A DNA stretch of 63,522 nt, counting the filler, from Hausera hauseri (taxonomy: Eukaryota), in assembly GCA_046269625.1 (NCBI GenBank). It is 11 parts of 11 records of this genome, joined end to end, with 100 filler letters (N's around TTAATTAATTAA, not from the genome) between each part and the next. Parts side by side here need not be neighbours in the genome. Positions count along the whole stretch, not along the records: positions 15,580 to 20,461 come from JBJURY010404701.1; 10 more parts are not named here. The stretch is one strand, 5' to 3'. Below the pieces are notes generated by a model. That model was not told where the DNA came from. It was given only the letters and a program-made list of their open reading frames with translations, and made no database searches. This document shows, in pieces, positions 1,416-63,522 of this stretch. Position 1 is the stretch's first letter; the number at the start of each line of letters is the position of its first letter. Made by a program: the position numbers and the translations under genes.

Positions 1416-1443
1416 TCTTTCCGCCGTCACTTTACTAGTAATT

Positions 1444-2160
1444 ATCGATGTGCACTCATGTGCACTATCGATCGGCACATGTGCAAAATCGATTAATCGA
1501 TTACCCCGGGGGGGGAGAGGGACCGAACCGCCATTTCTACACTACTTATACAGATACACAAATGTGAAAAGTGCAAAAGTGCCATGGCAACGGTGCCCAA
1601 AGGCACCTCCACCTTGAGCATTTGCCGATCGGTAGTGCACCGCGTGCAATACCGACCTCTACATGTAACATGATAATTTTATCGATATTTCATTTTATAC
1701 CGGAAAGGCCTATGGGAAGTCTGCCTCACCTGGCATTGATTCGAAGTTTAATTGATGGATTTAAAATCTAATTGCACATTCACTTAGTGCATCGCGTTTG
1801 CACTCGATTGTAACCAGTGCCATGTGCTAACCATCAATATTGGAATTACCAGAAAACCGATATTATTGATTTTTGAACACTTGTACATGTGCAGTGCACC
1901 TGAAAAATGCACCGATCGATGTGCACTAATGTGCACATCGACTAGCACTTTGGCCCAATCGATTCGTGCAACTGTGTAATGAGCAACTATCGATTTGTGA
2001 AATGTGCAAAAATGTGATTAGCAGCGATGCCTAACGGCACCGTTGACTGGCACATTACAGATCGATAGTGCTTCAGGTGCACTACCGACTAGCACATGTG
2101 CAAAATTGATTTATTGATTACATCCCGAGGGTGGGGCAGAGTTCCAATTTTTCCCGTACT
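1444..2160. repeat. GTGCAC/ATCGAT palindrome-rich dispersed repeat (two ends, at 1546 and 2160); probable Polinton-type terminal repeat
   Basis: Aligns by eye with 9358-9535, 31151-32000 and 42181-42605. All copies end in ...TACT, which reads AGTA on the minus strand. Confidence 0.7.
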
Positions 2161-7309: not shown

Positions 7310-8564
7310 TAGAGGGTGAGTCAAAAGTAAGGAAGCAGTAAAGAGTAAAACATTTATTAACAAACTAGAAAAGATATAAGAAATTTCAATCTTCAAAATA
7401 CAATCCATTATGTTCTATGTTCTTTTGTCATCGATCAGCCAAATTTTCGATTCCGGTCCGATACCATGCAGCCGGCTTTGAGGCGAAAAACTTACAGACA
7501 CTCTTCTCGACTTCGTTAAGGTCCCGGAATATTCTGCCACGAAGAAAGTGAGCCATCGACCTGAAAAGATGGTAGGATGTGGAAAAAGTTTGATTCTATC
7601 CAGCTCCCGAATTTTTCCTTGCGTAGATCGGGCGGTGTGCGGCGGAGTGTCATCTTGCCGCAGCAGAACCCGCTTTCTGTTGACCATGGCCGGGTACTTT
7701 CGGACTAAGGCCTCATATATCCGTTCAAGTTGTTGATAGAGCTCAGCTGTGATGCCATGGTTATCTGGAAATAGATCAAAATGTACTGGACCTTCAAAAT
7801 TCCACCAAACACATAACATGACCTTGTGTTCGAACCGTTCCCGTCTCGCCACAGGTTTTGGAAGCTGTCCCGGGTCAATCCACTGATTTCGCATATCAGG
7901 ATTACGGAAGAACATTCACTTTTCATCACACGTAACTACACGTTTGATGAAACGCTCGTCCATCGAGTTTTTGAGTAGCTCCCGACAGGTGTCTGCGCGC
8001 CGTTTTGCCTGTGCTGGTGTCAATTCATGGGGGGAAACCTGACAGCTCCTGTTTACCCTGCCGAGCTTGTGAAGGTGGCGAACGACACTGGATTGTTATA
8101 TTCCAGTCTCTGTCGAGATTATGCGCGTGCTTGTGGCCGGAGTCGTCACAACAGCTTGGAGCACATCTTCAGAATCAACCGTTGAAGGCCGCTCTAAGCG
8201 GGGTTGATCGATGAGCTCGGTGTCGCCATTTCTGAATTTTTTGAACCATCTATTCGTTGCAAAAACGGAAATGACACCCTGACCTTCAACTTCGCAAATT
8301 TTTTCCGTGGTTTTACGCTTACTGCATCCCCGTTTCCAATAATGCCGCAAAAGTGCTCGAATAGCTATTTTTTCGATGTTTAATATAAAATCTATAAAAA
8401 TTGTTAAACAAAATCATATGACAATGTACATAATATATATGAAAGAGGATGAAATGAGCTATCGAATGATATGCAGGTTTTGTTAATTGTAACGTTTATT
8501 AGCGCATAATCTATCGATGACGCAGTCGATAGGTAACTGCTTTGCTACTTATGACTCACTCTAG
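7310..8564 (-). mobile_element. Full-length mariner element with frameshifted transposase (~8385-7386)
   Basis: TIRs gtgagtcaaaagtaaggaagcagt / actgctttgctacttatgactcac flanked by TA. HTH, PHEL, VTCDE, KVMLCVWW and GLYFED* motifs. About 1.25 kb. Confidence 0.92.
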
Positions 8565-9357: not shown

Positions 9358-9535
9358 CGATTAGCACTTTGTCCCGATCGATTCGATCAATAGTGCACTG
9401 TGCAGCGATCGATAAGTGAAAAGTGCAAAAGTACCTTTAGCAACAGTGCCTAGTGGCACCGTTGATAGGGACTTTTTGGATCGATTTATCGATCCCCCCT
9501 CGGAGGTGGGACCGAACCGCCATTTTCACATTACT
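9358..9535. repeat. Palindrome-rich repeat end (probable Polinton-type terminus)
   Basis: Matches 42384-42605 closely, including the caac.gtgcc-tagt-ggcaccgttg hairpin and ggaccgaaccgccattt..tact end. Confidence 0.75.
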
Positions 9536-10533: not shown

Positions 10534-11433
10534 CTATGGTGAGTCAAAAGTAACGAAGCAGTAAAGAGTAAAACATTTATTAACAAACTAGAAAAGATAT
10601 AAGAAATTTCAATCTTCGAAATACAATCCATTATGTTCTATGGTCTTTTGCCATCGATCAGCCAAATTTTCGATTCCGGCCCGATACCATGCAGCCGGCT
10701 TTGAGGCGAAGAACTCACGGACACCCTTCTCGACTTCGTTAAGGTTCTGAAAGGTTCCGCGGCGAAGAAAGTGAGCCATCGACCTGAAAAGATGGTAGTC
10801 CGAAGGAGCAAGGTCTGGGTTATAAGCCGGATGTGGCAAAAGTTCTATTCCATCCAGCTTCCGAATTTTTTTTTGCGTAGACCGAGCGATGTGCGGCGGA
10901 GCGTTATCTTGCTGCAGCAGAACCCGCTTTCTGTTGACAATGGCCAGGTATTTTCGGACTAAGGCCTCATACATCCGTTCAAGTTGTTGTTGATAGAGCT
11001 AAGCTGTGATGCCATGGCCATCTAGAACTATCTCAAAATGTACTGGACCCTCAAAATTCCATCAAACACATAACATGACCTTGTGTTCGAACCGTCCCCG
11101 TCTCGCCACAGATTTTGGAAGCTGTCCCGGGTCCAACCACTGATTTCTCATATCAGGATTACGGAAGAAGATCCACTTTTCATTACACGTAACTACACGT
11201 TTGATGAAACGCTCGTCCATCGAGTTTTTGAGTAGCTCCCGATAGGTGTCTGCGCGCCGTTTTGCTTGTGCTGGTGTCAATTCATGGGGGACAAGTGGAC
11301 AGCTCCTGTTTACTTTGCCGAGCTTGCGGAGGTGGCGAACGACACTGGTTTGTGATACTCCCGTCTCTGTCGAGATTATGCGCGTGCTTGTGGCCGGAGT
11401 CGTCTCAACAGCTTGGAGCATAGCTTCAGAATC
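10534..11433 (-). mobile_element. 5'-truncated mariner copy, same family as 7310-8564
   Basis: TIR ctatggtgagtcaaaagtaacgaagcagt after TA. LVPHEL, QQDNAPPH and PAYNPDLAPSDYHLF (mariner D,D34D-type) motifs. Confidence 0.92.
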
Positions 11434-12148: not shown

Positions 12149-13699
12149 CTAGCTATTTACAATGGTGGTCAGATAGTTGAACACAAGTACAGTTGAACAC
12201 AGCAACAATTGAACACAAGTAAGTTGAACACAGCAACATTTGAACACAAGTACAGTTGAACACAGCAACAATTGAACACAAGTACAGTTAGCTATTTTTC
12301 TCAGATATTTCATATTATCCTGTTCATTGGCATATCCTAGAACAACAGACATTACCTTTCTCATCAATATCTCATACTTCTTCCTTTTTGGTTCTGGATT
12401 GCCAATCTCTGCATCAACCAATGTTTTGATGTGAATAGCCATGTCTTTCTTCAATCCCTCAAATAAATCCCACACACCAGGATGACTACAGTTGAACAGA
12501 GCCCTGAGAGAATTGTGGAATCCTTCACAGCAGTTTGTAGTTCTTTCTTGTCCAGCAGCAGCTGCTGCATGATGATTCCAGATTCTGACAGGAAACATCG
12601 GCTCTCTACCTGCATAGCCAGCAATGTAAGTGGAGCCAAAGTATGTGATCAGCTCATTGTATCTCTCATCATCTGGAAACTCAGCTGCCAGCTGATCAAA
12701 CAGTTCTCTCACATCATCCTGGGGGACAAATGCTAAAGCTGCCAGTGACTTCATCTTCAGTCTCATGGGGATCTGCTCTTGATCATCATAGACAGTTTTC
12801 AACCCCACATTTCCAATTTTTCTTAGAAGGCTTTGGCTAAGGTGGAAGTAGCAGCCTTTGATTTCTGCACCTGGAAAAGCTATTTGGGCAGCAGACATGC
12901 AAGCTTTTTCAAAATCCAGGAGAATTGTCTGTGGAGACAAGTTGGGCAGCAAGTGATTCAGGATTCTAAACATTCTGTTGTAAGTGTCTTGGGTTTTGTT
13001 CTGCAGGAGAAAGTAGATGCATGGAGGATAGGAGTTGCCATTCTTTGCATGCCAAGTGTAAAGCTGGTAGAACATCTTAGGGACTTTGTCAAAGGTTCCA
13101 TCCCCAAAGATTGTGTCTTTCTGAAGTTCCACCAAAAGATCTGGTTCACCAATTGCCAGAATTCTGTTAGGATCATCCTCTCCAGAATCATGAAGAATCA
13201 TGTGCATGTACTCTTCTGGAATTTTAAATTGTGCTGTGTCTGGATTTGGAGTATGATTTCCTCCTGCCTTCTTAACTCTGTTCAATTTTCTAGTGATTGA
13301 TGACTTTTTTGGCATATGGGCCTGAATTTCTTTGGATACCTGCATTTCATTAAGAACAGTTCCCATCACATTTCTTGGATTGGCACCCACAGACTTGATT
13401 TTGTCCACCATTTTCTGCACAACAGCATTGGCATTGATTACCTGTGGAAATGAATCATGGGAGTGGCCAGTGGGTTCAACAACAATGGCAGGAGTTTCAT
13501 CATCAGTAGTTTTCATTCGGGAATGGCATTTCTCTAATCTGTATTGCCTGCACCTCCATTGGACAATGCCATTGGTTGTTCTTTGTTGAATGTACTCATG
13601 GCCTTTGTAACCCACAACTTTCCCACCCCTTTTAGTAAAGTAAAATTGTGTCCAATGGTTGCTGTGTTCAACTGTACTTGTGTTCAACTGTCTGACCAC
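12149..13699 (-). CDS. FLYWCH-MULE transposase (open frame, start codon uncertain)
   Basis: FLYWCH zinc finger (TKRGG..Y..WRC..C..HSH), DGTF, LLDFE, GCYFH, RTTNCCEGFH catalytic motifs. No internal stop. Confidence 0.92.
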   Translation of the reverse strand: MVRQLNTSTVEHSNHWTQFYFTKRGGKVVGYKGHEYIQQRTTNGIVQWRCRQYRLEKCHSRMKTTDDETPAIVVEPTGHSHDSFPQVINANAVVQKMVDKIKSVGANPRNVMGTVLNEMQVSKEIQAHMPKKSSITRKLNRVKKAGGNHTPNPDTAQFKIPEEYMHMILHDSGEDDPNRILAIGEPDLLVELQKDTIFGDGTFDKVPKMFYQLYTWHAKNGNSYPPCIYFLLQNKTQDTYNRMFRILNHLLPNLSPQTILLDFEKACMSAAQIAFPGAEIKGCYFHLSQSLLRKIGNVGLKTVYDDQEQIPMRLKMKSLAALAFVPQDDVRELFDQLAAEFPDDERYNELITYFGSTYIAGYAGREPMFPVRIWNHHAAAAAGQERTTNCCEGFHNSLRALFNCSHPGVWDLFEGLKKDMAIHIKTLVDAEIGNPEPKRKKYEILMRKVMSVVLGYANEQDNMKYLRKIANCTCVQLLLCSTVLVFKCCCVQLTCVQLLLCSTVLVFNYLTTIVNS

Positions 13700-13700
13700 C
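12164..13700 (-). mobile_element. Compact MULE (Mutator-like) DNA transposon with repeat-containing TIRs
   Basis: ~55-bp TIRs ggtggtcaga.agttgaacacaagtacagttgaacacagcaac at 12164 and inverted ending at 13700. No clean 9-bp TSD visible. Confidence 0.9.
12174..12290. repeat. Subterminal tandem array of ~15-17-bp TTGAACAC units
   Basis: Seven TTGAACAC cores alternating -AAGTAC and -AGCAAC on the left end, versus three on the right end. Confidence 0.9.
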
Positions 13701-15579
13701 TTTCATTGACATTTGGCGCCGCTGCACAGTCGTCAATTAACGATTACGTTGAATAATTGATTCCCTTTGTTGACAGTGACGCCGAAGGCGAAATTTATGT
13801 GTATTTATATACGTAAAAAAATTGAAAACTGTTTGTTGTATTGGTGATAACAGAAAAATAAAGTGAAGTTTGTTATTATTTTTTTATATTTAAAATAAAA
13901 TTATTGAATAAGGCTTATTCTGACAATCGGGGCTACTTTATCTAACACTGTCTGAAATTATTTTAAATAACGGTCTTGTCCTGGTAGCATTACCGACTAA
14001 CATTTGCTACAGAAGCAAAAATCCTGCATTAAAGGTTCTTATCTGGCAGCATTGCCAACAAACCATTCTGACTAAAAGTAACGTGCACTAAAGCTTCTGC
14101 CTGATAGACAATACTTACTAAGCCGCAAATTCTAACGCCATCTTTCGTACTGAATTGTGAGAATAGCCTCTATTGTCGAATTACTGTTGCAAGATAAATA
14201 AGCAAAATACTATTTCACAGGTGTTATCCTAGTGATACTACCTGAAGAAGGGTTGTCAAGTCGATTCTTGGTGACTCACCAACATCTTTGACCCAAATTA
14301 ATTTAACGAACAATAAAGATAATCCATAAACTTCGTGTTTCGAATTCGTATCGCCTGCCAAATACCAATTGTACAAAGATAAGTCAGTGCTTGGTATGAA
14401 AATCGTTGATTGACATTCGTATATCATTAAGCTTGAAGCCGAACTCACTGTAAGGCTAACACTGGTCCGACCTCCAACAGTTAAAATAAATCCAACGGAT
14501 CATAAATTTAACAAAAGTACAAAAGATTTTGCTGATAAACGAAGTCTTTTTCGGCTTTTAATTTTGTTTTAAATAGAAAGACTTTAAGAAAAGTTCTGCT
14601 TTTCACGAAGAAGTATAAAAAGCACAAAAACAAATTTGCCAGGGAACATTTAAATTTAGCGTCTCTCGTTTTATATTTGAAATTATATCCATCGATCGGC
14701 CTTAAATAACGGACTTTAATAATAAACAGTAACATTCATAAAACAATGTGACAAATGTTATAAGTAATCGGTTTTTGTGAGATATTTGATTTTAACCTTA
14801 TTTTAAATAAAAATACTTAATAGTTCGCTGTGTCAAATAATTGCAACTTCAAACAATACTCCAACCCGAAATATTTCCCTTTAAAAGCAATGTCGCCATA
14901 TAGTTTTATACAATTCTAAAAATTGTCAGAAAATTATTTTCATTTTCTGTTAAAATTTCATGGTGTTTTACTTGTCGAATAACGTAATGAAAGTAATTTA
15001 ATTATTAAAATTAAGCTAAATCAAATTTTATCAGCATTTTGAAACACAGAAAGTGTTTCCAGGAATTTTCTGCTTGTAAAGAAGGCTGGCCTGAGAAGTT
15101 CGAGATATGCTTCCTCACATGGTTCTATCTTTACAAAATACATCCACTGTAGCCTGGTGTTAGCTATAAAAACATATTTACTCCTCTTACACACCATAAC
15201 CCACATATAATAAGTCCGTATCACCCTCATATGTCAGTATCACCCTCATATATTATTGCCTATTACCCTTGTGTGTGTGCACAGGACTGCCTGGATAAGA
15301 AAATCCATTGTTATCCCACCTCATTCATCCACTGCCTCCTTTTTGCTCCATCTTCATTCCAGCTGTTTATCACCACTTTCATTCCATCATCACTTCAAAC
15401 CTTCCAGGAGGCCTGCTCTGACTTCTCTGTGAATACGCTGGCTCCAGGTCAGTCAGCACCCAGGTGTGTTGGTGGGTTTNNNNNNNNNNNNNNNNNNNNN
15501 NNNNNNNNNNNNNNNNNNNNNNNTTAATTAATTAANNNNNNNNNNNNNNNNNNNNNNNNNNNNNNNNNNNNNNNNNNNN

Positions 15580-18500
15580 CCAATTGCCATTCTAAATTTT
15601 GTATTGTTAGGTAATATAGTTTCTTCCCCAATGTCCTTTAAATATCCTGGTTCCATGGGTGTTTCGACGGGTTTGGAATCATTTAAATTAAATCTGTCAA
15701 TAATTTCTTGTATTTTCACATTTTGATTTAATGCGAAGTGTCCTTGTTCAGTTTTCCTTATATTGATTCCAAGGTAATATCTGACGGGTCCTAGATCCTT
15801 AATCTCATATTCTTTACTTAGACTCTCAATCGTTTCTTTAATTTGAGATTCGCTACCGGCAATTAAGATGTCGTCTACATAAACAACAACATATATGGAA
15901 TTTTTGTCCTTTTTACTAAAGTATAAACATGGATCAGCTGTGCTTTGTGTGAAATTTAAATTTTTTAATGTTTGGCTAATCCTTGTCTGCCATGCTCTGG
16001 CGGCCTGTTTGAGTCCATATATGGCCTTCTGCAATTTGCAAACTTTGTTTTCCTTTCCTGGAACAACGTATCCCTCAGGTTGTGCCATGTATACATCTTC
16101 GTTCAGATTTCCATGTAGAAAGGCAGTCTTCACGTCAATGTGATTGACGTTCAAATTTTTATGGGCTGCGGTGGCAAGCAACGCCCTAATAGTTGTATGG
16201 GATACCACCGATGCGTAAGTTTCATCATAATCTTCACCGAATTTTTGTGAATAACCCTGAGCCACTAGTCGAGCCTTAAATTTTTCTATTTTGCCTTCGC
16301 TGTTATATTTGGATTTAAAAGTCCATTTACTACCTATGATTCTTTTTCCTTGCGGGAGATCTACGAGTGACCATGTGTTATTTTCCTTGAGAGAATTGAT
16401 CTCTTCTTGTGTGGCCTGAAGCCATTTTGATTTCTCATTTGGGTTCTGTAATTTTTGTATATCTGACCAGCTACGCGGTTCTTGTACGTGATCATTAACA
16501 TAATATATTAATCTATCTGGAGGAACTCCCTTATTTGATCTTAATGATCTTCTCGGCTCTTCATCAGCAGCACTTGTAGGTGTTGAATTTTCGCTGGTGT
16601 ATGATTCAGACAAGTCTATTTCAATTTCAGAATTTTGATGATTATTTGACTCTTCAAGAAATTTAACAGTTCTAGATATGATAATATTTTTATTCCCTGT
16701 GTAAATTCTATAGCCTTTAGAGTTAATGTCGTATCCAACGAAGATACCTGCTTGTCCCCTGTCATCTAGTTTAGATCTTTTAGTTTTGTCAACATAAGTG
16801 TAAACCTTGCATCCGAACAATTTTATATTCGATAAATTAGGCCTGTATTTTTCCCAAAGTTCAAATGGAGTTTTCTGGTTAGCCTTGGTAGGTAGTCGGT
16901 TCTGCAAGTAAGTGGCAGTGTGAATTGCCTCTCCCCAGAACTTGTGTTCAAGATTTGCTTCATTGAGGAGACATCGCGTCATTTCCATTAATGATCGGTT
17001 CTTACGTTCTGCTACACCGTTCTGAGGTGCGCTGTATGGAACGCTTAATTGATGGACAATTCCAAGAGATTTTAAATAGTCTACCATATCAGTATTAATG
17101 TATTCTCGACCATTATCAGTTCTGATAGCTTGCGGTACTTTACCGAATTTATTTTTTATCATAAGTACGTATTCCTTTAGTTTACTGAAGACTTCCGATT
17201 TATTTGATAAGAGAAATATAGTAGTATATCTACTAAAATCATCGATAAATGTCAAAAGATAGGTTTTCCCTCCAATTGTTGGGGTTTTTAGCGGTCCGCA
17301 TAAATCACTATGTATGAGTTCTAAGACTTTTGTAGCTCTGTGTTGAGCTTTATGAGGGTAAGGTTTACTTGTTAACTTGGATTTAGCGCATATCTCGCAA
17401 TCGAGATTATGTGTGCATTTGTTTATCTTTATACCTATGGCTAAATCTTCCCTAACCGTTTGCTTGATGGCTTCGTAGTCTCGATGACCTAATCTTTTAT
17501 GCCATATATCAATACAGTTTTCATTACTGCAGTGGTGGGCTAAATTCACGCAACCTGGAGGTTTATCGTTTTGGAAAGTCACCTGATATAAACCCTCTTT
17601 AATCTGTGCAGTTAAACAGATTTTTCCTGCGTATGTGAAATGGCAGTATTCCTTTTCAAAAGTCACTGTACACCCATTTTGAGTAGCTTTCTTCACCGAC
17701 AATAAATTTGTTTTAATATCTGGTACGTATAATACATCCTTTAGTGTAATTCTATTTGTTTCGTTATTTGGGGTCCTTTTTGTTAGTATTATTTCACCTG
17801 ATCCATAGGAAGTAAGCGTTTGTCCATTGGCAATTATAACTTCTGATTTATTTGTATTGTACACTTCGGAGAATAGATTTTTATCATTAGAAATGTGGGA
17901 TGAACTTCCACTGTCTATTATCCATACATTATTGCCTGGTCTTTCTGTGATAAATGCAAAATTATTCATTTCTTCGTTTAATTTTTCAACCTCCTTGGGG
18001 TTTACTTCCAGTGATTCATTACAAGGTGTGGTCCCTGTATTCATTTCCAAACATAGCGATGATTTATTTTCTGTTAATTTTGTTTTCATTTGTTGATTTG
18101 TACTTTTAAGGTGCCAGCAATTTTGTTTAGTATGATTTTTTCGTTTGCAATATGTGCAAAATTTGTCCGCCTTAGGATTAAAGTAATTTCGTTTGGTATT
18201 ATTGCCATGATAATTATTGTGATAGTTGTGATTTTGGAAATGTCTATTTTTGTTTATTTGAAATGCCTTCGTGGCGTCTTGTTGAGTGGCATTCTCAATT
18301 CGCCTAGAATATTCATCTATCAGTTTGCTTTTCAAAAAACTTGGATTGAGTTCCGACTCGGGTCTGGCCTCAAGAGCTGTAATAAGTGTATCATAAGATT
18401 TCGGCATAGAGCATAAGAGAAGAGCGGAGATGTGTGAGTCACTTATCACTTCCCCGATGGCGTTCAATTTATCTATAATTTCTAAAATTTTTGTTATGTG

Positions 18501-18854
18501 AGTGTTCATATTTCCGCCTTCCTCAAGTTTTGTATTATACAATTTTCTCAATAGGAATAGTTTACTGCTCAGATTTGTTCTTTCGTGGACATTTTTTAAC
18601 GTATCAAAGGTTTCCTTAGCCGTCGTTAAGTGCTTGACGTGCATTATCTGCGAATTGTCTATGAATAAGTTAATCAAGGCCCTTGCTTTATTATCTTTCT
18701 TTTTCCATTCACTAGTTTCAGGTGTGGGAGGACTTTCAGTAACTAAGTCATATAAATCCTCTCTAATGAGAACCATCTGAATTTTAAATTTCCACGTACT
18801 ATAATTATGTTCATTTAATTTTTCAATTATTTGGCTTTCTTTAATTGAACACAT
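15580..18854 (-). CDS. Copia Gag-Pol part 1 (Gag, CCHC knuckle, protease, integrase, RT)
   Basis: NYSTWKFKI, CTYCKRKNHTKQNC, WIIDSGSSSH, WHKRLGH, HSDLCGP, RTDNGREY, QNGVAERKNR, HIDVKTAFLHG, YVDDILI. PR-IN-RT order is copia-type. Confidence 0.97.
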
Positions 18855-19094
18855 GTTTACGCACTTTATTCACTTCGTATCAAAATACAATATCTTTTCG
18901 AAAGTGAAAGTCAATAAATTCAATACTTTTGAGATCGCTTATAATATAGGATACCATAAAATAATAATGAAAATTGAAGCAAACATTATGCACAAATATA
19001 CTTATATAGTTGTATAAAACAGTTCAAGACAGCATACTGAGCTTCTATAATCATTCTTATTTGTTGCGCATTTATGCGTTATTCATTTAATGCT

Positions 19095-19108
19095 TCAGTC
19101 TCATAATC
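19095..19108 (-). promoter_or_regulatory. Primer-binding site complementary to the anticodon arm of elongator tRNA-Met
   Basis: GATTATGAGACTGA directly follows the LTR CA. The plus strand reads TCAGT-CTCATAA-TC, the animal elongator tRNA-Met anticodon stem-loop. Confidence 0.8.
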
Positions 19109-19714
19109 TGTTAGAAGTAAATAAAGATATCCTAGGTAACACAGTTTCAAGGTAAGTATAGATAAGGAACTTCACTTACCTGATTTGCTTCTAATGCGAC
19201 GAATATTGGTATCCTTAATAATCCGCTACTTTTCCTTTTTTACATAGGAACACAGAATGTACGTAGACGAATAGCGACGTTCAGTAATGGCAAATTAAAC
19301 ATAGACGGAAGTAATAAAGAAATCCTTTCAATTGGGATGAACAATTCTATTTAATATAACATAAAATTACATTCTTGATTAAGTATATTTAAATTCAAAG
19401 TAATCAATTTGTACAATTATTTAATACTAGAATAGTAGGAGAGTGCCGAACGGCCAACCTCCATGATTAAGACTTTGCTACCAACAGAGTGAAGAAAATG
19501 CGTACGTAAGAGAAATAACTTGCGGTTAAAATTCTCAAAGAACACTCCCAGCTTTAGGAATGAGCTGAGCAGCGTATTTATTCATGTACGCGTAGAAAGC
19601 TAATAGAGTTAAAATTGATAAGTCTTTTGCAGTCTGAATAAATATTTCTTACACACAATTATATAGAAGTTCGAAATGAGTTCAATTCAGATTCAGAGAT
19701 CATCACTTCCAACA
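19109..19714 (-). repeat. Copia LTR (606 bp)
   Basis: Begins TGTTGGAAGT right after the polypurine tract AAGGAGGGA. Ends ACTTCTAACA, giving a 10-bp imperfect terminal inverted repeat. Confidence 0.88.
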
Positions 19715-20461
19715 TCCCTCCTTGATCTCTGAAGGTGATGGTGTTGACGATAACTGCATGCTGGCTCGATGTCCAACGAAACAAGGTCTAGGTAAAGGCT
19801 TCGTGAGTACGTCGGCAATCATCTCGCTGCTGGGACAGTAATCGATATCAATGATCCCCTTCTCTTTCAGGTCTCTGATACAATGGAACTTTATGTCAAC
19901 GTGTTTGGTTCTAGATGTGTGCTTTGGTGATTCAATCATTTTAATTGAAGACTGATTATCCTCAAACAGTTTTATTGGCATATTTTGAGGCATGTCGAGA
20001 TCTTCTAATAGTCTTATTAACCACAAAATTTCTTGCGCTGCATTGGCAGCTGCCACATATTCAGCTTCGGCTGACGATAGTGCTACACAGTTCTGTTTTT
20101 TTGAAATCCAGTTAATGGGACTCTTTCCCAAAAGAAATAAGTTCCCAGAGGTAGATTTCCTATCATTTTTGTCACCTGCCCAGTCTGCATCACTATAGCA
20201 TGTTAATTTAGCATTTGATTCAGGATCTATGAGTAATTCATGATCAATTGTACTTTTCAAATATTTTATTACTCTTTTTGCTTGTTCCCAGTCTTTGCTT
20301 CTGGGCTTTTCATTTCGCCTGCTTAATATGTTTACCGCGGCAAGTATATCAGGACGAGTGATTGTGGCAACATATAATAATGCACCAATTGCCATTCTAA
20401 ATTTTGTATTGTTAGGTAATATAGTTTCTTCCCCAATGTCCTTTAAATATCCTGGTTCCAT
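19703..20461 (-). CDS. Copia Gag-Pol part 2 (RT end + RNase H); joined ORF ~1318 aa
   Basis: TRPDI, YSDADWAGD..RKSTSG, SSAEAEY, EDNQS, KHVDIKFH, ADVLTK. Confidence 0.97.
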   Translation of the reverse strand: MEPGYLKDIGEETILPNNTKFRMAIGALLYVATITRPDILAAVNILSRRNEKPRSKDWEQAKRVIKYLKSTIDHELLIDPESNAKLTCYSDADWAGDKNDRKSTSGNLFLLGKSPINWISKKQNCVALSSAEAEYVAAANAAQEILWLIRLLEDLDMPQNMPIKLFEDNQSSIKMIESPKHTSRTKHVDIKFHCIRDLKEKGIIDIDYCPSSEMIADVLTKPLPRPCFVGHRASMQLSSTPSPSEIKEGCWK

Positions 20462-21169
20462 NNNNNNNNNNNNNNNNNNNNNNNNNNNNNNNNNNNNNNN
20501 NNNNNTTAATTAATTAANNNNNNNNNNNNNNNNNNNNNNNNNNNNNNNNNNNNNNNNNNNNTCTGGCGTACTAAAATGTACGGGTCTTATTGGCCAAAAT
20601 ATGACGACTATTCTTCCTCCAATAACCGTTAATTGCTGCATTGGTTATCATCGAATTGAAATTATTCGAACTCCAACACTCTAATAATAATCTTGTGGAA
20701 TATCTCCGCACGATAAATTTGTCACATCGATTGATTTAATCTTGCGACGAACCTTTTTCTGGAATGTTTCCAAACGACCACGGATGCTTTTAGCATTTCT
20801 ACATAAATTATGAAATCGGGAAAGACAAATTCCATCGTAAAATTTATCTGATTCATTATTTTCCTGAAAATGAACGTATTTCTGAAAAATTTTTATGGCA
20901 ACGAAAGGTAAATTGAGGTATCGACATCAGCACAATGAGAAACCCTTCATGAATGTATGACCGCAAAAAAACTGATTCATCTTGGTTTTGTTATACTCTC
21001 TTTTCAGCTTTCATTTGGTGGTGGTGAACAACCGACGACCGTCATAAAAATATGGCTGTCCATTTGCATTAGAAAATGAAACATATTCAAGGATTGTATT
21101 CTCAAAGCGAAGAGTCGGACCCGACTATCGATCCGACACGGCGATAGCGGATGCCCGGACATGCCCAAC

Positions 21170-23200
21170 CAAGTGGGCCAAAGGGCACCTGCCGTTATGG
21201 GCACCACATTCACCCTTTCTCAATCGCTTCAAAAAGAAGCATTCAACAACATCCATTAGTTGCATCATCCTGGTGCCAAGGCCATTTTCGACTCTTACAA
21301 CGCCAAGTAGAATGGCCGTCGATGCGCTCTGACATGCAGGCATCGGTTATACAGTGTGTGACATGTCCAAAATACAAAGTTACTAAGCACTTAAAGCCAT
21401 CACAATATTATTTTCCCTGCACGTCTCGTTATGAATCAGTTCACATGGACCTTGTAGGCCCACTACCCTTAGACAACGGCCATCAGTTCATCCTCACAAT
21501 GATGGACCGTTCCTCGCGATGGTTAGAGGCTGCCCACTTCGCAGCACCAACATAAAAACAATCGCAGACGTTTTCATTCGCACTTGGATCAGCAAGTTTG
21601 GATCACCTCGCCATATCATTTCGGACCAAGGACCACAGTTCGAATCCAACCTGTGTAAAGCTCTTGTCAATCGATTGGGAATTAACCACATCAACACGTC
21701 ACCATATCATCCTCAATCGAATGGCCTTCTCGAACACTTTCACCAAACAATAAAAACGTCTCTCAAAATCCTTGCTGAGTCCAATCGCAGTTGGACTACA
21801 CTCCTTCCGTTTCTTCTGTATGGCTGGCGGAACACACCATCTACTTCTGCGGGCTGTTCACCTGCAAAAGCATTATTTGGCACTTCTATCATACCATTAT
21901 TCGAGCTCGCTGAGCTGGACAATATTCCTACAGACGACACTATACAAGCGGCTCAGAGACACTTCGTTGAGTTCATCAAAGACTCATTTTGTAGATTGTT
22001 ACACGGCAATAAACCCTGCATACTCGACGATTTATACTGCCAACTTCATATGGCTAAAGAATCAGAAGCCGTGAAGTTTTCAACCTCAGTATGTTGGACC
22101 TTACAAAGTAATTCGTTTACACTCCCACAACATCATCATCCTCAAAGACGACAAAGAAGTCTACATCAACAACGCTAAGCCGGCTTTCTTCATTGATGAT
22201 ACGCATCCCATCGAAACCAATTCTCGACCAACATTTTTACACGACGCACAAAAATCCAACAATTGACCCTCCATCTCTGCTCTATTCTATAACCCACTTT
22301 CCCCTACGTTTTCTCCTAAGAATTCTATTTCAATTTCTTCTGACAGTTCAGCCTCCTTTTCCCCATCCGATTTTACACCTTCAAGCCTTTTCACACGTCC
22401 TTCATACGCTGGTGACAACCTGCTTCCTCCTTTTACAAGACCTTTTCCGCCAAACACCACTTCGACTTCACCAATATTTCCATATTCCTGCTCTCTTCAG
22501 TTTTATCCATCTTGGCCGTCTTCGCTCTCTCTCCTTCCACACCTTCCTCCCTATCTCCTCACACATCGTCTTTTACTCCTTTCATTTTCGATTCGCAGCT
22601 TCCTCCTCTCTCTACCCTATCCTTATCTCTCTTTCTCTCTCTACCACTACCTCTGTTTCATCTTCCACTTCCACTCTTTCGCCTAATACAGTTCCAACTT
22701 CTATTCCAATATTTGTATCTCTTCCTTCATCCGCCACTACACCTTTTATTATTCCTTCGACTTCTAACACTCTCTTGAATAGCTTCAACCATCTGTTTTC
22801 AACAATCTCTCTTCCTCCTTCACCTTCTTCTCTTTCTTCTGACTCATCTTGGCACGACACAACACTCACAACAAAATACCACAATTTTCTATAACTTAAA
22901 CTTCTGCAAGCAAACACACAGCATAAAAACAAAGCACGAAGAGTAACATTCAGCAAGTATAGCAGGAAAAAATCAGCAGAAGACACCCAACGTCTTGTGC
23001 ACACTAAGACCAACTGACATACACCCATTTTCGTTCAGCGATAGTTTCTTTCCGACTGTGTTGATCTTTGTAGTTTTCACTTTGCCATGGGAGTGATGTG
23101 GTGCCCACAGCGGCCGGTGCACTTTGGCCCATTTTGGTTGCACACGGCCGGGCGTCAGTTGCCGCCGCATCGGGTCCGTAGTCGGGCCCGATAAGCCATC
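21170..23200 (+). mobile_element. Ty3/gypsy 3' part: decayed integrase, Ser/Thr/Pro-rich tail, PPT and start of 3' LTR (23097)
   Basis: HHPG, VHMDLVGPLP, IISDQGPQFES, TSPYHPQSNGLLE, GPY motif. GGGAGTGA|TGTGGTGCCC junction. Confidence 0.9.
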
Positions 23201-24405: not shown

Positions 24406-25208
24406 AATCGACAAAAATTGCTAGGAAAATGTGACTGACGATAATTGGTCTGTAGAAGTTAATAAACCGGATGGACAAGTTTACTCGAAGCCAACTCGAG
24501 AAACAGATTTTAAAATCGTTAAGTTGAGAGCGTTTTTAAAAAGATGTCGAAGCGAACGTGATGTATGATGTATTATACGACCCAGATTATAGAAAAGTAT
24601 GGGATCGTGGCATGGTAAGATGCAAGGATATTTGTATGGTTAATCCAAACAACGATATTGTTTACTATGCGCTACAATCTCCACCACCATTTAAAAATCG
24701 AAATTTTGTTACATAACGATCTTGGCTTCAAACACCATCAGAATACATAATTTTCAATCATTCTGTCTTCCACAAGGAAATGCCACAACAGAAAAACTTT
24801 ATTCGTGCCATTTCACACTTAACCGGATATCTTATCAGATCATCTCAAGAAAGAAGTTGTGTTTTGACATATATTACTCAGTGTGATCCAAGAGGAAAGT
24901 TGCCAGCATGGGCAGTAAGCAAAGCAACGCAGTATGTAGCGCCAAAAGTGCTATCCAAGTTGACCAAAGCGGCAGTCAAATATCCATCGTGGAAAAAGAA
25001 ACACAATCCCGATTTGAAACCGTGGTTGTATCCAGAACAGATGACTTTATCGCGAATCAATTACGATCATATCCAACAAACGCCAGATTTCGAAGATGTT
25101 AACATTGACAAGAGCACCGTAATGGAAACTGCTGGTGCGTTCGATGCCGTATCCAATGAAGATTTGAGCGGTTATTCACCAATGCCCCCGCGTAAAGCGA
25201 ATGGGTGA
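24406..25208 (+). pseudogene. STARD10: START-domain lipid-transfer protein (PCTP-like/STARD10-like) pseudogene
   Basis: [76 protein letters not shown]. One stop and frameshifts; no introns over this span. Confidence 0.85.
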
Positions 25209-26300: not shown

Positions 26301-27388
26301 ACCGGGCAGAGATAACGTATTTTCCTATATTTTGCAATTAAGAATGTTGGTCTTCAACACCGAATGGATATTAACAACACATCATCCAAGCGACAACAAA
26401 TAATTTTCCATCTTGAGTTTTGTTTTTTGATCGGTTATAATAACAAAAATGGAACTTCTTCAATTCCATAATTATACTGTCAATCAATGCAAACTTTAAC
26501 ATTTCAATTGGATTTTCAATTTCACGCTTGTCTGAATCCAATCGAATTTTGTAATTCTCGACTGATTTTAACATGAAATATAACGATAGTAACTTGGTCA
26601 AAATGAATCGAATTGCGACATTTGAACAGCCGTGGTGGGGTGTCGTGAACAAGAGCCGGATACCAAATTTTGTAATATTTTTTATACGTGTTTTAATTGC
26701 ACGATAACTCAGAAATACAAGTTGTAGCTTCTTTAAAACGTTTCAAATAAACTTTCGATGCTGGAAAAGTGTTTTGTTTTTACGGATTTCTCCAAAAGGA
26801 TTGAAATAAATAATACGTTACGGGTTGTAATGAATTGTACAAGTCCTATGAAACAAAATGACAATGATACGTGGTTGGTGCATCGGAATGTAACAGATGG
26901 TATTTCCGTGCACCAGAAAAACAGTTATCGGTTTTGATTATATAACCCTGATTCTTTATGTAAAAGGTGCTATCGAGAATTCAGATATACAAACTGCAAT
27001 CTACAATTGGTGTCAGGATCAAAAATCCTACGATTTGATTTGTCGGACTCCGGAATATGAATTTTCACCCACGATTTTTGCGGAAAATTGCAAACCTACA
27101 ATTTGGAACTATGTAGTGAGTTCGGTTTTTGTTTGTTCGATACCCTGCGGCTGTTATTTGTGTCGCAATTTACTTGTTGGGTTAAAATCGAGAGTTATAA
27201 AAAATCTAATCCTAAATTGTAAAAGAAACATTACCTTCGGATTGAGACGGACAACATTCACTGTAATTTATATGACATATTACAAATCGTTTTATTGCAA
27301 AACTTTATCAAATCATCCGGATTACGGTAAACATAATCGAAATAATAATTATATAGAAACTGAAGCCACGTTTTACCATTTAGTATGT

Positions 27389-29645
27389 ATGGATGCCAAA
27401 CTGATATCTGGAAAAGATGTTGCAAAAACGATTCGGGATGATTTGACAAAACGAATTTCACAAATTCAGTCATGTCAATCCGGCTTTCATCCATGCTTAG
27501 CGATTGTCCAGGTTGGTAATCGTGTAGTTTCCAATGTGTACATTCGACAAAAATTAACTAACGCGGATGAGTGTGGTATTAAAGCACGACACATCAAGCT
27601 ACATAACACTGCCACTGAAGATGAGATTTTGAAAGTTCTCGATAAACGGAACAGTGACAATAGTGTGCATGGAATTGTAGTGCAGCTACCGCTCGACTGT
27701 ACGAGTGTTGTTAATTCTAATTTCTACAAATTCCATTGCAGTGGAAAAAGATGTCAATGGGTTGAGTAAAAATTGCCGGTAAATTGGCACATGGGGAACT
27801 GATTTCATGTGTTGTCCCATGTACACCGAGAGGTTGTTTAGAGCTTATATCGCCTACCGGTTTAAGTAACCCAGGAAAACATGTTGTTTTAGGCCGATGT
27901 AAAATAGTTGGTCGACCAATGGCTTACCTGTTGTTATGGAGCCATGCAACAGTTACAGTTTGTCATTCGAGAACTAAAATATTACTAATAAAGTTAGTAG
28001 AGCTGATATTCCCCTGGTTGCCATTAACAAAGCACAGTTTGCGAAAGGTGACTGGATTAAGTCCGGATCGGTTATTATTGATTGCGGTATATTCACCAGT
28101 CCTGACTCAGATAACAAATTGGGGAAAAAACTTGTTGGTGATATTGAATTTGAAGTGGCTAAAACTCGTGCTGTTTAGATACCCCCAGTTTCCGGTGAAG
28201 TTGGGGCTATCACAGTGGCAATGCTACTAAAGAGTACTGTTGATAGTGGGGAGAGATTAATTGAAAGGAACCAGAACACAAATTTTACTAGTTTACCAAA
28301 CCCCTTAAAATTACAATCAAATGTGCCTTCGGATATCGGCATATCTCGGTCACAAAAACCGTAACCGATTTCCCAGATATCAAAGGAAATTGGCATTTTA
28401 CCCCACGAACTTGATTTATATGACGAAAGTAAAGCGAAAGTCAGTTAGGATATTTTATCACGACTGACGAATTGCAAGAATGGGAAATATGTACTTGTTA
28501 CTGGAATCAATCCAACACTATTCGGTGAGGGCAAAAGTATAACAGCAATAGGTCTGAGTCAAGCTTTATTCGAGTGTTTAAAAAAGAATGTTTTTGCATA
28601 CTGTAGACAACCGTCTCAAGATCCAACTTTCGGAATTAAAGGAGGTGCCGCAGGCGGCGGTTATTATCAAATTATTCCAATGTACGAATTTAATTTACAT
28701 TTAACGGGTGATATTCATGCAGTCACTGCTGCCAATAACTTACTGGTGGCTGCTATCGATGCTCGAATGTTTCACAAAAACACTGAAAGTGACACTGCTT
28801 TGTTCAGTCGTTTAGTCCCATCTGATCATACCGGTCATCGTAAATTGTGTGCAGTACAATTGGAAAGAATTCAAAAGTTGGGTATATCAAATACATACAT
28901 AATGACATGGGACGAAACGACAATTCGTCGATTTGCTCGACTTGATATTAATCCCAGTACGATTCAAGTCGAACGAGTTATTGATAATAACGATAGATTT
29001 TTACGAAAAATTACGATTGGAAAGTCTGCAACAGAAAAGGGTCATGAAAGAGATTGCCAGTCTGATCAAAGCGTTGCTAGTAAATTGATGGTCATATTAT
29101 CTCTGTCCACTAGTTTACAAGACATGCGACAACGTATTGGGCGATTTGTAGTCGGATTTAGTAAATCGGGGATCCAATTACAACAAGTAATTTGGGTGTT
29201 TGCGGTGCAATTACAGTTCTGATGAAAGAAACTATTAAACCCAACCTGATGAAATCCTCGGAAGGTGGTCCGGTAGTCGTTTATATCGGACCATTTGCTA
29301 ACATAGCACACGGAAATTCATTAAACATAGCTGATACGATTGCTCTTAAACTGGTAGGCGAGAATGGATATGTTTTGACTGAAGCCGGATTCGGTGCCGA
29401 TATTGGAGCAGCAAAGTTTCTTAATATTAAATACAGATCGTCTGGTCTCGTACCAAATGTTGCCGTTTTGATTGTATCGCTTCCAGCTCTTAAACTTCAT
29501 GGTGAAAATATCAAGAAACAAGGAGTCCTCATCGTCGTTGCTTTAAACAATTTCAAATACGATCATACGGAAGAAATCGAAGCAGTTTGTCGAATAGCAA
29601 TAGAAAACTGAGCGCACGATGCTGTTTTAGCTTCTCATAGGGCTC
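27389..29645 (+). pseudogene. MTHFD1: Trifunctional C1-tetrahydrofolate synthase pseudogene (FolD + FTHFS domains)
   Basis: [109 protein letters not shown]. Multiple frameshifts and stops, 3' truncated, intronless. Confidence 0.93.
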
Positions 29646-31150: not shown

Positions 31151-32000
31151 AGAAAATTAATTATTCGAAAAGTTCGACTTGTATTCGAGTTTTTCGAATA
31201 TCGTATGTCATAATTGGATACAGCACATGTTAGTTTCTATGTGCGTACGCTTTTAGATTTTTTGATTTTCACTTGCTTGTGTGCTAAAATTAACTTCAAA
31301 TGTTTTATCGGGAAACCGTTATTATTGATTAAGGCACACTTGCATATGTGCCACGCATGTGCAAAGTGCCATATAGATGCATTAAGACATGGGGAATCGA
31401 CTGGCGCTCTCAGATTTCTCAAAAAATTTGTGGGTGTCAAGATATTTGATACTATTCGATGAAAGTCGATAAATCTGAGATGGAAGACCCGGGTTACAAT
31501 GTGGCAATTCCTATCTGTCCCCGCTTAAACATTTGTCAAATTTGGCTTCCTTAAGGCCTAAAAAACCTATGAGGGTTCTCGCTCAGTTGAACTTGGTACA
31601 CACTTCAAAAAATATTCGATCGATTTAAATTCTAAGTGCACAGGGTTGTAGCCAATCAAAAACTCGTTTGAACTGCGCTCTCCAAATGTGCTAATCATCA
31701 ATATTGGAATTATCGGAAATCCGATATTACTGATTTTTGCACACTTGCACTGTGAGCTGATCGACGTGCACTAATGTACACTATCGATTAGCACTATCCC
31801 GATCGATTCCGATCAATACTGTACCGTGCAGCGATCAATTGTGAAAGGTGAAAAAGTGCCCCTAGCAACGGCACCGTTGCCTAGCACATTACCGATCGGT
31901 AATGCTCCATGTGCACTATCGATTAGCACATGTGCACTAGTGATTTTGCACTGTGCGACCCCTTCCGGGGGTTGAGGGAGAACCCGCATTGTCCCCTACT
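31151..32000. repeat. Long copy of the palindrome-rich repeat (probable Polinton-type TIR), followed by (TATG)n
   Basis: 31620-31940 aligns with 1755-2100 and 42200-42550. Ends gtcccctact (AGTAGGGGAC on the minus strand). Confidence 0.7.
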
Positions 32001-42180: not shown

Positions 42181-42605
42181 ATTATTCGAAAACCAATCAA
42201 TCGATTTAAATTCTAACTGCACATTCACATACAACATCAAGTGCACTACCGATTGCATCCGGTCGCGAACCCTAATGATCGATTTTTAAAATCTCGATAA
42301 TCCAATATTATTGATTTTTGCACAATTGCATATGCGCTGCACACTTGCACTTGCACCAATCGATGCATCTCGATGTGCTCTATCGATTAGCACTTTGTCC
42401 CGATCGATTCTATTAATAGTGCACTGCGCAGCGATCGATAAGTGAAAAGTGCAAAAGTGCCCTTAGCAACGGTGCCTAGCGGCACCGTTGCAGGCACTTT
42501 TTGGATCGATAGTGATCCGTGTGTGCTATCGATCGGCACAAGTGCAAAGTCGATTTATCGATTACCCCCTCCGGGGTGGGACCGAACCGCCATTTCTACA
42601 CTACT
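42181..42605. repeat. Palindrome-rich repeat end (probable Polinton-type terminus) abutting the gypsy tail
   Basis: Perfect 11-bp hairpin at 42466-42491. Ends ctacactact (AGTAGTGTAG on the minus strand). Confidence 0.75.
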
Positions 42606-63200: not shown

Positions 63201-63522
63201 AATTTCTGATGTTTTCATCAAAATTTGGATCAGCAGATTTGGCTCGCCTTGTTTTATTCTCAAGGACCAAGGTCCACAATTTGAGTCAAATCTGTTTAAA
63301 GCCTTAGTCAATCGCTTAGGGATCAAACATATACACACTTCTCCATATCATCCTCAAGCGAACGGTTTACTTGAACAATTTTACAGCGCAATGAAGACCT
63401 CGCTCAAAATCCTTCATGAATCACACAGCAACTGGACATCTCTTTTTCCACTGGTCCTGCTCGGTTGGCGTAACACACCCTCTACAACTACGGGTTGTGC
63501 ACCAGCTGAGGCATTGTTTGGG
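60300..63522 (+). mobile_element. Decayed Ty3/gypsy element (gag end-PR-RT-RH-IN), same family as 42606-47650
   Basis: FLIDSDTAVS..PILGSDFL, SKSPWA, RPCGDYRQ, IDLHKAYHQIP, MPFGL, YIDNILI, TDHKPL, VHIDLVG, DQGPQFES, YHPQANG. Confidence 0.93.

What the first reader, a model, noticed from the sequence alone, without database searches (positions are those of the whole stretch)
19095..19110. Copia element apparently primed by a half-molecule of elongator tRNA-Met
Seen: directly after the LTR-terminal CA the element reads GATTATGAGACTGA, complementary to TCAGT-CTCATAA-TC. Known: Drosophila copia and other hemiviruses use GGTTATGGGCCCAG, which pairs with the anticodon arm of a cleaved initiator tRNA-Met and ends 2 nt into the 3' stem. 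The register here is identical, but the sequence is that of the animal elongator tRNA-Met arm (no 3 G-C pairs). Inference: a primer switch within the half-tRNA priming mechanism.
Basis: partly seen in the sequence, partly recalled or inferred. Interest (0 to 1): 0.7.

Follow-up and report, generated by a model that had tools for sequence, protein, structure and literature searches.

The report
Copia primed by half elongator tRNA-Met
An intact jumping gene from an animal carries, right after its terminal repeat, a 14-letter site that matches the middle of the ordinary (elongator) methionine tRNA instead of the initiator tRNA used by its famous fruit-fly relative, so it likely starts copying itself from a cut half of that tRNA, a new primer choice within an already known trick.

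Summary
Observation confirmed; interpretation largely supported. Window 15580-20461 is one circular assembly contig holding a stop-free Ty1/copia element (minus strand). Its LTR runs 19714-19109 (purine tract before it, terminal inverted repeat 10 of 12), and the next 14 bases match nt 27-40 of elongator tRNA-Met 14/14 (initiator 8/14), in the same register as Drosophila copia, which I recovered as a locus. The same site sits at the LTR edge in two distant copia elements (L056, L136) and in a three-copy LTR family whose flanks fix the boundary (5 of 117 scan loci). The rival TGG site lies inside the LTR, not after CA. Priming itself is inferred; no RNA or cDNA data, no integrated copy of this family, host unidentified. 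Half-tRNA primer switches are in print (Ile, Tyr, Asp/Asn, Lys); I found none to elongator Met in ten searches, and the scan's earlier notes cover tRNA-Asn and D-arm sites only. New variant of a known kind; interest 0.45.

The parts
19095..19108 (-). Primer-binding site, 14 nt, complementary to nt 27-40 (anticodon arm) of elongator tRNA-Met(CAU)
   Evidence: 0 of 3000 shuffles reach 14/14
19109..19110 (-). LTR-terminal CA; also complementary to tRNA nt 41-42
19109..19714 (-). Single LTR, 606 nt, TGTT...AACA, terminal inverted repeat 10 of 12; TATA-like site at 19665, poly(A)-signal-like hexamers at 19582, 19425, 19355
   Evidence: boundary inferred from purine tract, inverted repeat and PBS, not from a second LTR
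19715..19730 (-). Polypurine tract directly before the LTR
18855..19108 (-). PBS plus 5' leader, 254 nt to the first ATG of the gag frame
15580..18854 (-). gag-PR-INT-RT part of the polyprotein, 1091 aa, no stop; cut by the contig end
   Evidence: Pfam Retrotran_gag_2, Pol_BBD, gag_pre-integrs, rve, SH3_retrovirus, RVT_2; Gag matches PDB 8vvw at E 1e-27; 0 stops
19703..20461 (-). C-terminal part of pol (end of RT and RNase H region), 252 aa, stop lies in the first 12 nt of the LTR
   Evidence: no Pfam family at E 0.001; RNase H assignment rests on recalled copia motifs and position
15580..20461 (.). Whole record: 4882-nt contig with a 77-nt terminal direct repeat (15580-15656 = 20385-20461), i.e. 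an assembly circle of 4805 nt
19472..19483 (-). Rival TGG-type site, 10 of 12 to the GalEa PBS; inside the LTR, not after CA
19147..19183 (-). Hairpin near the LTR 3' end that covers a 5' splice-site consensus (approximate ends; role unknown)

Best explanation
This is an intact Ty1/copia LTR retrotransposon whose 14-nt site next to the LTR is complementary to nt 27-40 of elongator tRNA-Met, and it likely primes minus-strand DNA synthesis from the 3' end of a 5' half of that tRNA cut at or near nt 40. Shown: element anatomy, LTR edge by purine tract and inverted repeat, exact complementarity, same register as Drosophila copia, recurrence of the site in three further families. Inferred from copia and Ty5: the tRNA is packaged in the particle, its weak anticodon stem is opened, the arm anneals to the site, the tRNA is cut after nt 40, and reverse transcriptase's first two bases copy the LTR's CA. 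Inferred further: the lineage moved from the initiator half to the elongator half, helped by the 8 shared bases around the CAU loop; whether once long ago or several times is open.
For: 14/14 to elongator arm, 8/14 to initiator arm; duplex -20.0 versus -3.1 kcal/mol; 0 of 3000 shuffles. Register equals Drosophila copia (L189) and the nt-40 start given for hemiviruses in PMC1181622 (passage). Independent elements with the same site at the LTR edge, 5 of 117 loci: L056 (purine tract, 93-nt LTR TGTGAA...TTCACA, site, gag about 130 nt on), L136 (Retrotran_gag_3 E 1.1e-07 within about 130 nt downstream) and L045/L059/L101 (three unrelated flanks, homology starts at TGTTAA 204-206 nt upstream and the repeat ends TTAACA before the site). 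L056 is only 38% identical to the window over INT+RT, so the site is not kept by recent descent. In the three-copy family pairing runs on into the tRNA D-arm (14, 21 and 25 of 1000 tail shuffles as stable; one family). Both reading-frame parts are stop-free, which suggests a recently working element.
Against: No RNA, cDNA or small-RNA evidence. Only one LTR is present, so no second LTR or target-site duplication confirms the window's own boundary, and 606 nt is long beside 276 (L189) and 93 (L056). The host's tRNA genes were not available. Primer sites of the nearest relatives (P0001-P0003) could not be read, so the direction of the switch is untested. D-arm extension is absent in the window, L056 and L136 (548, 249, 263 of 1000). 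The same arm occurs in 10 of 40 phage hits as tRNA-Met genes, some with initiator-like bodies (likeness judged from recall), so 'no three G-C pairs' is not an absolute mark outside the eukaryotic cytosol.
Confidence: 0.85

Rival explanations
1. The primer is elongator tRNA-Met but it ends at nt 42 (or 41), not 40: the tRNA pairs over 16 bases across the LTR edge, is trimmed to the end of that duplex, and the LTR's terminal two bases on the minus strand start as RNA.
For: The LTR-terminal CA is complementary to tRNA nt 41-42; DNA sequence cannot tell a primer ending at 40 from one ending at 42.
Against: Every copia LTR ends in CA, so the extra pairing needs no selection: initiator-type loci L168, L189, L205 show the same run against this tRNA. 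Removal of a primer ending at 42 would be expected to take the terminal dinucleotide needed for integration (inference). Published start for hemiviruses is nt 40 (PMC1181622).
Confidence: 0.06
2. The real LTR ends near 19490 and the element primes from the 3' acceptor end of initiator tRNA-Met at TGGTAGCAAAG (GalEa type); the half-tRNA site would be a by-product.
For: 10 of 12 match to the GalEa PBS printed in PMC3587641; 12 of 3000 shuffles reach 10 or more, so it is a somewhat unlikely coincidence for that one tRNA; TATA-like and AATAAA sites lie upstream and would fit a 225-nt LTR.
Against: The TGG is 6 nt from the nearest CA, whose inverted-repeat match is 7 of 12 against 10 of 12 at 19109; GalEa sites are described as strictly conserved and directly after the LTR (PMC5445492); it leaves a perfect 14/14 site at a better LTR end unexplained, and three other families have the half-tRNA site at their LTR edge.
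Confidence: 0.04
3. The primer is another CAU-anticodon tRNA with the same arm (an unusual host initiator, or an organellar or symbiont tRNA), so no initiator-to-elongator change took place.
For: Host tRNAs unseen; phage tRNA-Met genes carry this arm (10 of 40 hits).
Against: The host is an animal by its neighbouring contigs (STARD10 named hits all animal; FLYWCH-MULE; nearest named copia proteins from a spider); human and, by the copia site, fly initiators have the G-C-rich arm; conservation of that arm in eukaryotic cytosolic initiators is recalled knowledge.
Confidence: 0.03
4. The match is chance, or a non-functional fossil in an element that primes some other way (self-priming).
For: No experiment; the 14-mer occurs by chance in many unrelated contigs (112 of 117 loci).
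Against: 0 of 3000 shuffles; exact abutment to the LTR end; same position in three other families.
Confidence: 0.02

Closest known systems
Drosophila copia (genus Hemivirus; also 1731, yeast Ty5, Volvox Osser)
   Same: gag-PR-INT-RT-RH order; PBS directly after the LTR CA; 14 nt covering tRNA nt 27-40 with the CAU loop (L189 = copia); Gag homology E 1e-27.
   Different: Primer arm is elongator, not initiator, tRNA-Met (6 of 14 bases differ); predicted duplex is weaker (-20.0 versus -27.6 kcal/mol, the latter by construction); LTR CA also pairs with the tRNA; only 38% identity to copia over INT+RT and no supported joint clade; LTR 606 versus 276 nt.
Plant Bianca lineage (1/2 tRNA-Ile) and Osser, Bryco, Gymco-II (1/2 tRNA-Met); PMC6317226
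   Same: Half-molecule priming, and in Bianca a change of primer tRNA within that mechanism (passages and supplement 3).
   Different: Different tRNA and host kingdom. The paper's '1/2 tRNA-Met' does not separate initiator from elongator in what I read; its element table (Additional file 1) was too large to read and could hold elongator-type sites.
Rust-fungal Copia and Helenus families (PMC10886601) and FunCo1 (PMC5445492)
   Same: Anticodon-loop sites for tRNA-Tyr, -Ile, -Asp or -Asn, -iMet, with repeated primer changes (passages); FunCo1 site matches an internal part of tRNA-Lys (passage).
   Different: None is said to use elongator tRNA-Met; 0 hits in the one held supplement; figure 3 not visible. 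All fungal.
Metazoan GalEa copia clade
   Same: Animal copia with a Met primer; a 10-of-12 look-alike of its PBS lies in this LTR.
   Different: GalEa primes from the tRNA 3' end with the site directly after the LTR; here that position holds the half-tRNA site.

Membership tests
Ty1/copia (Pseudoviridae) | gag-pol with domain order PR-INT-RT-RH | tested here: met
   Pfam positions 25-187 gag, 311-395 Pol_BBD, 421-608 integrase, 825-1068 RVT_2; RNase H part without Pfam hit, placed by recalled motifs
Ty1/copia (Pseudoviridae) | [quoted passage not shown] | tested here: met
Ty1/copia (Pseudoviridae) | Two LTRs flanking the internal region, with target-site duplication | not testable with these tools
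   contig is a collapsed circle with one LTR; no genome; no other copy in the window
Hemivirus-type priming | Only a short internal segment of the tRNA is used; site matches the anticodon arm ending at nt 40 | tested here: met
   sequence level only:
Hemivirus-type priming | Cleaved tRNA half physically primes minus-strand DNA | not testable with these tools
   needs RNA-linked cDNA mapping
Genus Hemivirus as typified by copia and Ty5 | Primer is initiator tRNA-Met | tested here: not met
   8 of 14 to the initiator arm, 14 of 14 to the elongator arm; ICTV says 'typically' initiator, so this lowers likeness to the type members rather than excluding the genus
Genus Hemivirus as typified by copia and Ty5 | Phylogenetic grouping with Drosophila copia | tested here: inconclusive
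   window sits in a supported 4-row and 7-row group without L189; deeper forks are open; PMC1181622 notes half-tRNA users are not monophyletic
GalEa clade | TGGTAGCAGAGC directly after the 5' LTR | tested here: not met
   best match after a CA is 6 of 12; the 10-of-12 site is inside the LTR

The most novel reading that the evidence does not exclude
Animal copia lineages have taken up the elongator tRNA-Met half as primer more than once, and because this tRNA also pairs with the LTR's terminal CA, these elements prove that the half-tRNA cut at nt 40 is set by a ruler in the particle (position-defined endonuclease) and not by trimming to the duplex edge or by an initiator-specific host pathway.
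Probability: 0.3. Interest if true: 0.65.

Novelty: new variant of a known kind. Interest (0 to 1): 0.45.

Why it matters
Half-tRNA priming has been studied only with initiator tRNA-Met (copia, Ty5), where the cut site coincides with the end of the tRNA-template duplex, so one cannot tell what defines the primer end. With the elongator tRNA the possible duplex runs two bases into the LTR, so one junction-mapping experiment separates a fixed-position cut (nt 40) from duplex-edge trimming (nt 42). It also extends published primer switches (plants, rust fungi) to what is probably an animal lineage and warns that a database label '1/2 tRNA-Met' can hide two different tRNAs. It does not add a new mechanism.

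Tried and rejected
No copia element in viral contigs: 40 pattern hits, none with a tblastn hit to the window protein, and no related locus. Metagenome hits L080/L105/L106, L044, L092, L066/L090, L088, L127, L083/L093/L138/L148 and others were inspected and not counted: no gag by HMM or Pfam and no LTR boundary; Pfam was run on 25 of the frames listed, the gag HMM on all 117 loci. Extended pairing into the D-arm was tested and not supported for the window, L056 and L136; a separate second contact with tRNA nt 1-26 was not found (408, 37, 500 of 500 shuffles). The three bases AGC after the site in the window, L136 and the three-copy family (4 of 117 loci, all element loci) would pair with nt 25-24 across an A-G26 mismatch; noted after looking, left as a lead. 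One-step conversion of the PBS by copying a mis-chosen primer is attractive but a reference title in PMC5371799 says the primer sequence is not inherited in Ty1 (title only; the paper and the Ty5 paper are not held), so I do not rely on it. One origin versus several: AU test p 0.1 for holding L056 with the window group, undecided; the careful tree did not finish. RNA structure around the PBS is not unusual (z -0.64); no Rfam family near threshold. Host could not be narrowed: the MTHFD1 piece is 60-65% to animals and fungi alike, STARD10 57% to a trematode among only 36 candidates. No sequencing-run data were obtained, so copy number, expression and flanks stay open.

Full report
What the window is. 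The window is a string of 11 contigs separated by identical spacers. The finding lies in the record 15580-20461, 4882 nt, whose first and last 77 bases are identical: an assembly circle of 4805 nt. On the minus strand it holds a 1091-aa frame with Pfam Retrotran_gag_2, Pol_BBD, gag_pre-integrs, rve, SH3_retrovirus and RVT_2 in copia order and, across the contig end, a 252-aa C-terminal part; neither has a stop. Such a circle arises from a multi-copy element whose two LTRs collapse, or from a one-LTR circle (inference). Either way only one LTR is seen. No host genome is held and no other piece of the element is in the window. Neighbouring contigs point to an invertebrate animal (FLYWCH-MULE; STARD10 with animal-only named hits, best named 57% to a trematode among 36 candidates; nearest named copia proteins from the spider Araneus ventricosus, 48% overall), but the group is not determined.

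The observation. After the pol stop region a purine tract ends at 19715 and the LTR begins TGTTGGAAGT at 19714. The best inverted-repeat partner ends at the CA at 19110-19109 (10 of 12 bases; the only other CA with 7 or more is at 19490). The next 14 bases, 19108-19095, are GATTATGAGACTGA, and the gag ATG follows 254 nt after the site's start. Human elongator and initiator tRNA-Met are printed in PMC8216282 and PMC1797187 (passages seen): the site is the exact complement of elongator nt 27-40 and shares 8 of 14 bases with the initiator-type site. A tRNA-Met(CAT) gene in L070 gives the same result. In 3000 dinucleotide shuffles of the 860-nt non-coding stretch no 14/14 match after a CA occurred (best 12, once), and an inverted-repeat match of 10 or more occurred 45 times.

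Register. A contaminant contig, L189, encodes a Gag identical over 267 residues to the Copia VLP protein of PDB 8vvw, has a 276-nt LTR and GGTTATGGGCCCAG directly after its CA. The window site aligns to it gap-free; the eight invariant PBS columns surround the CAU loop. PMC1181622 states that hemivirus cDNA starts from nt 40 (passage); the ICTV profile (whole text) defines Hemivirus by use of a short tRNA segment. Predicted duplex energies are -20.0 kcal/mol with the elongator arm and -3.1 with the initiator arm; copia's site gives -8.7 with the elongator arm. The two sites are therefore not interchangeable.

Independent elements. Five are LTR-element loci. L056 is a second copia circle: pol end, purine tract, 93-nt LTR with a 6-base perfect inverted repeat, the same site, then gag. 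L136 has a copia gag start (Retrotran_gag_3, E 1.1e-07) about 125 nt after the site; only 617 nt could be fetched. L045, L059 and L101 are three copies of one repeat with unrelated left flanks; similarity starts at TGTTAA 204-206 nt upstream, the segment ends TTAACA, and the site follows, which is the flank-defined boundary that the window lacks, though no coding sequence was seen for that family. Two loci are tRNA-Met genes; the remaining 110 gave no such evidence, and 37 loci had only about 300 nt of flank. The search was by pattern, so it shows recurrence at the right position, not frequency.

Relationships. Over integrase and RT the window is 61% identical to the spider proteins, 38% to L056 and 38% to Drosophila copia. 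It sits in supported groups of 4 and 7 rows whose primer sites are unknown; L056 is a long unplaced branch; holding it with the window group is not rejected (AU p 0.1) and the careful tree did not finish (23 of the 90 aligned rows were used). So one old origin and several origins both remain open. Among 74 contaminant copia loci, initiator-half sites were seen in L168, L189, L205, L183, L186, L210, TGG-type sites in L158, L163, L167, L177, and other Met-arm sites in L176 and L197; none had the elongator site at an LTR edge.

The rival site. TGGTAGCAAAG at 19483 matches the GalEa PBS (PMC3587641, passage) at 10 of 12, reached by 12 of 3000 shuffles. This is a result against my reading, but the site is 6 nt from a CA with a weak inverted repeat, GalEa sites are strictly conserved and abut the LTR (PMC5445492, passage), and it was picked from many possible tRNA ends.

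Mechanism. Shown: anatomy, complementarity, register, recurrence. Inferred from copia and Ty5 (PMC10275265 and PMC5371799, passages; the primary papers were not read): the tRNA is cut in the anticodon stem and its new 3' end primes minus-strand synthesis at the LTR edge. The elongator arm is easy to open (the L070 arm alone folds at -0.1 kcal/mol). All sites stop matching at nt 26, a position that is methylated in many eukaryotic tRNAs (recalled); the window, L136 and the three-copy family continue with AGC, which would resume pairing at nt 25-24, but only the three-copy family shows energy beyond shuffled tails. In initiator systems the cut and the duplex end coincide; here they do not, which makes the origin of the cut testable.

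What is known. Half-tRNA priming with other tRNAs is in print: Bianca with tRNA-Ile (PMC6317226, passages and supplement 3), rust-fungal Copia and Helenus with Tyr, Ile, Asp or Asn and repeated changes (PMC10886601, passages), FunCo1 with an internal part of tRNA-Lys. Searches found no report of an elongator tRNA-Met half as a natural primer; the library lacks most subscription journals and Repbase reports, and Additional file 1 of PMC6317226 could not be read. The scan's earlier notes (unchecked) describe tRNA-Asn halves and D-arm sites in diatoms and a protist, not this one, and sequence look-ups found nothing.

Verdict. A real primer site, most likely for the 5' half of elongator tRNA-Met (0.85). 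It works like Hemivirus-type priming; it is a Ty1/copia element; it is not shown to group with Drosophila copia and fails the initiator-primer feature of the type members. New variant of a known kind, interest 0.45.

Noticed in passing
whole window: The window is 11 unrelated contigs joined by ten identical N-flanked spacers; only 15580-20461 has a terminal direct repeat.
   Followed up: yes
L176:60-241: A GC-rich copia, sister to initiator-type L183 (SH-aLRT 98 and 95), has GGTTATGAGTCTGG after its LTR CA and 110 nt before gag. This fits a Met(CAT) arm without three G-C pairs; such arms exist in phage tRNA-Met genes (54 of 60 hits). Possibly a separate shift away from the initiator; host tRNA unknown.
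   Followed up: partly
L045:5798-6100, L059:5800-6243, L101: Three-copy LTR family with the elongator site; the tail pairs on into the tRNA D-arm with two bulges, and the leader holds an inverted copy of an LTR segment. No coding region in the fetched DNA.
   Followed up: partly
window 19147-19183 (-): Hairpin that hides a 5' splice-site consensus about 70 nt upstream of the PBS; z -3.06, 2 of 200 shuffles, stretch chosen after looking. No matching acceptor pattern in the leader.
   Followed up: partly
L158-L231: 74 loci of eukaryotic copia elements sit in bacterial and archaeal genome assemblies, including Drosophila copia itself in a record titled Aquimarina sediminis (L189): contamination.
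   Followed up: partly
L002, L005, L007, L011, L017, L023, L025, L030, L034, L039: Phage tRNA-Met(CAT) genes carry the same anticodon arm as the eukaryotic elongator, with U31-U39 opposition.
   Followed up: no
L086:577-664; L084: A tRNA-Met gene with an insert in the anticodon arm region that repeats part of the arm (intron or duplication), and a decayed tRNA-Met-like sequence.
   Followed up: no
window 26894-29611 (+): Intron-poor, frameshifted C1-tetrahydrofolate synthase (MTHFD1) gene, probably a processed pseudogene.
   Followed up: partly
window 24717-25208 (+): C-terminal 163 aa of a STARD10-like protein in one frame.
   Followed up: partly
window 12149-13702 (-): FLYWCH-MULE transposase frame of 517 aa ending in a 16/32-bp tandem repeat at 12175-12289.
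   Followed up: no
window 7315-8028 and 10538-11285; 21148-22178, 43206-43801, 62925-63474: Two mariner-like copies about 93% alike, and decayed gypsy-type integrase/RT remnants about 70% alike.
   Followed up: no
window 1416-2112, 9358-9535, 31281-31946, 42267-42605: A short dispersed repeat family (D6, D7, D8, D13, D14), often near contig ends; MITE-like.
   Followed up: no
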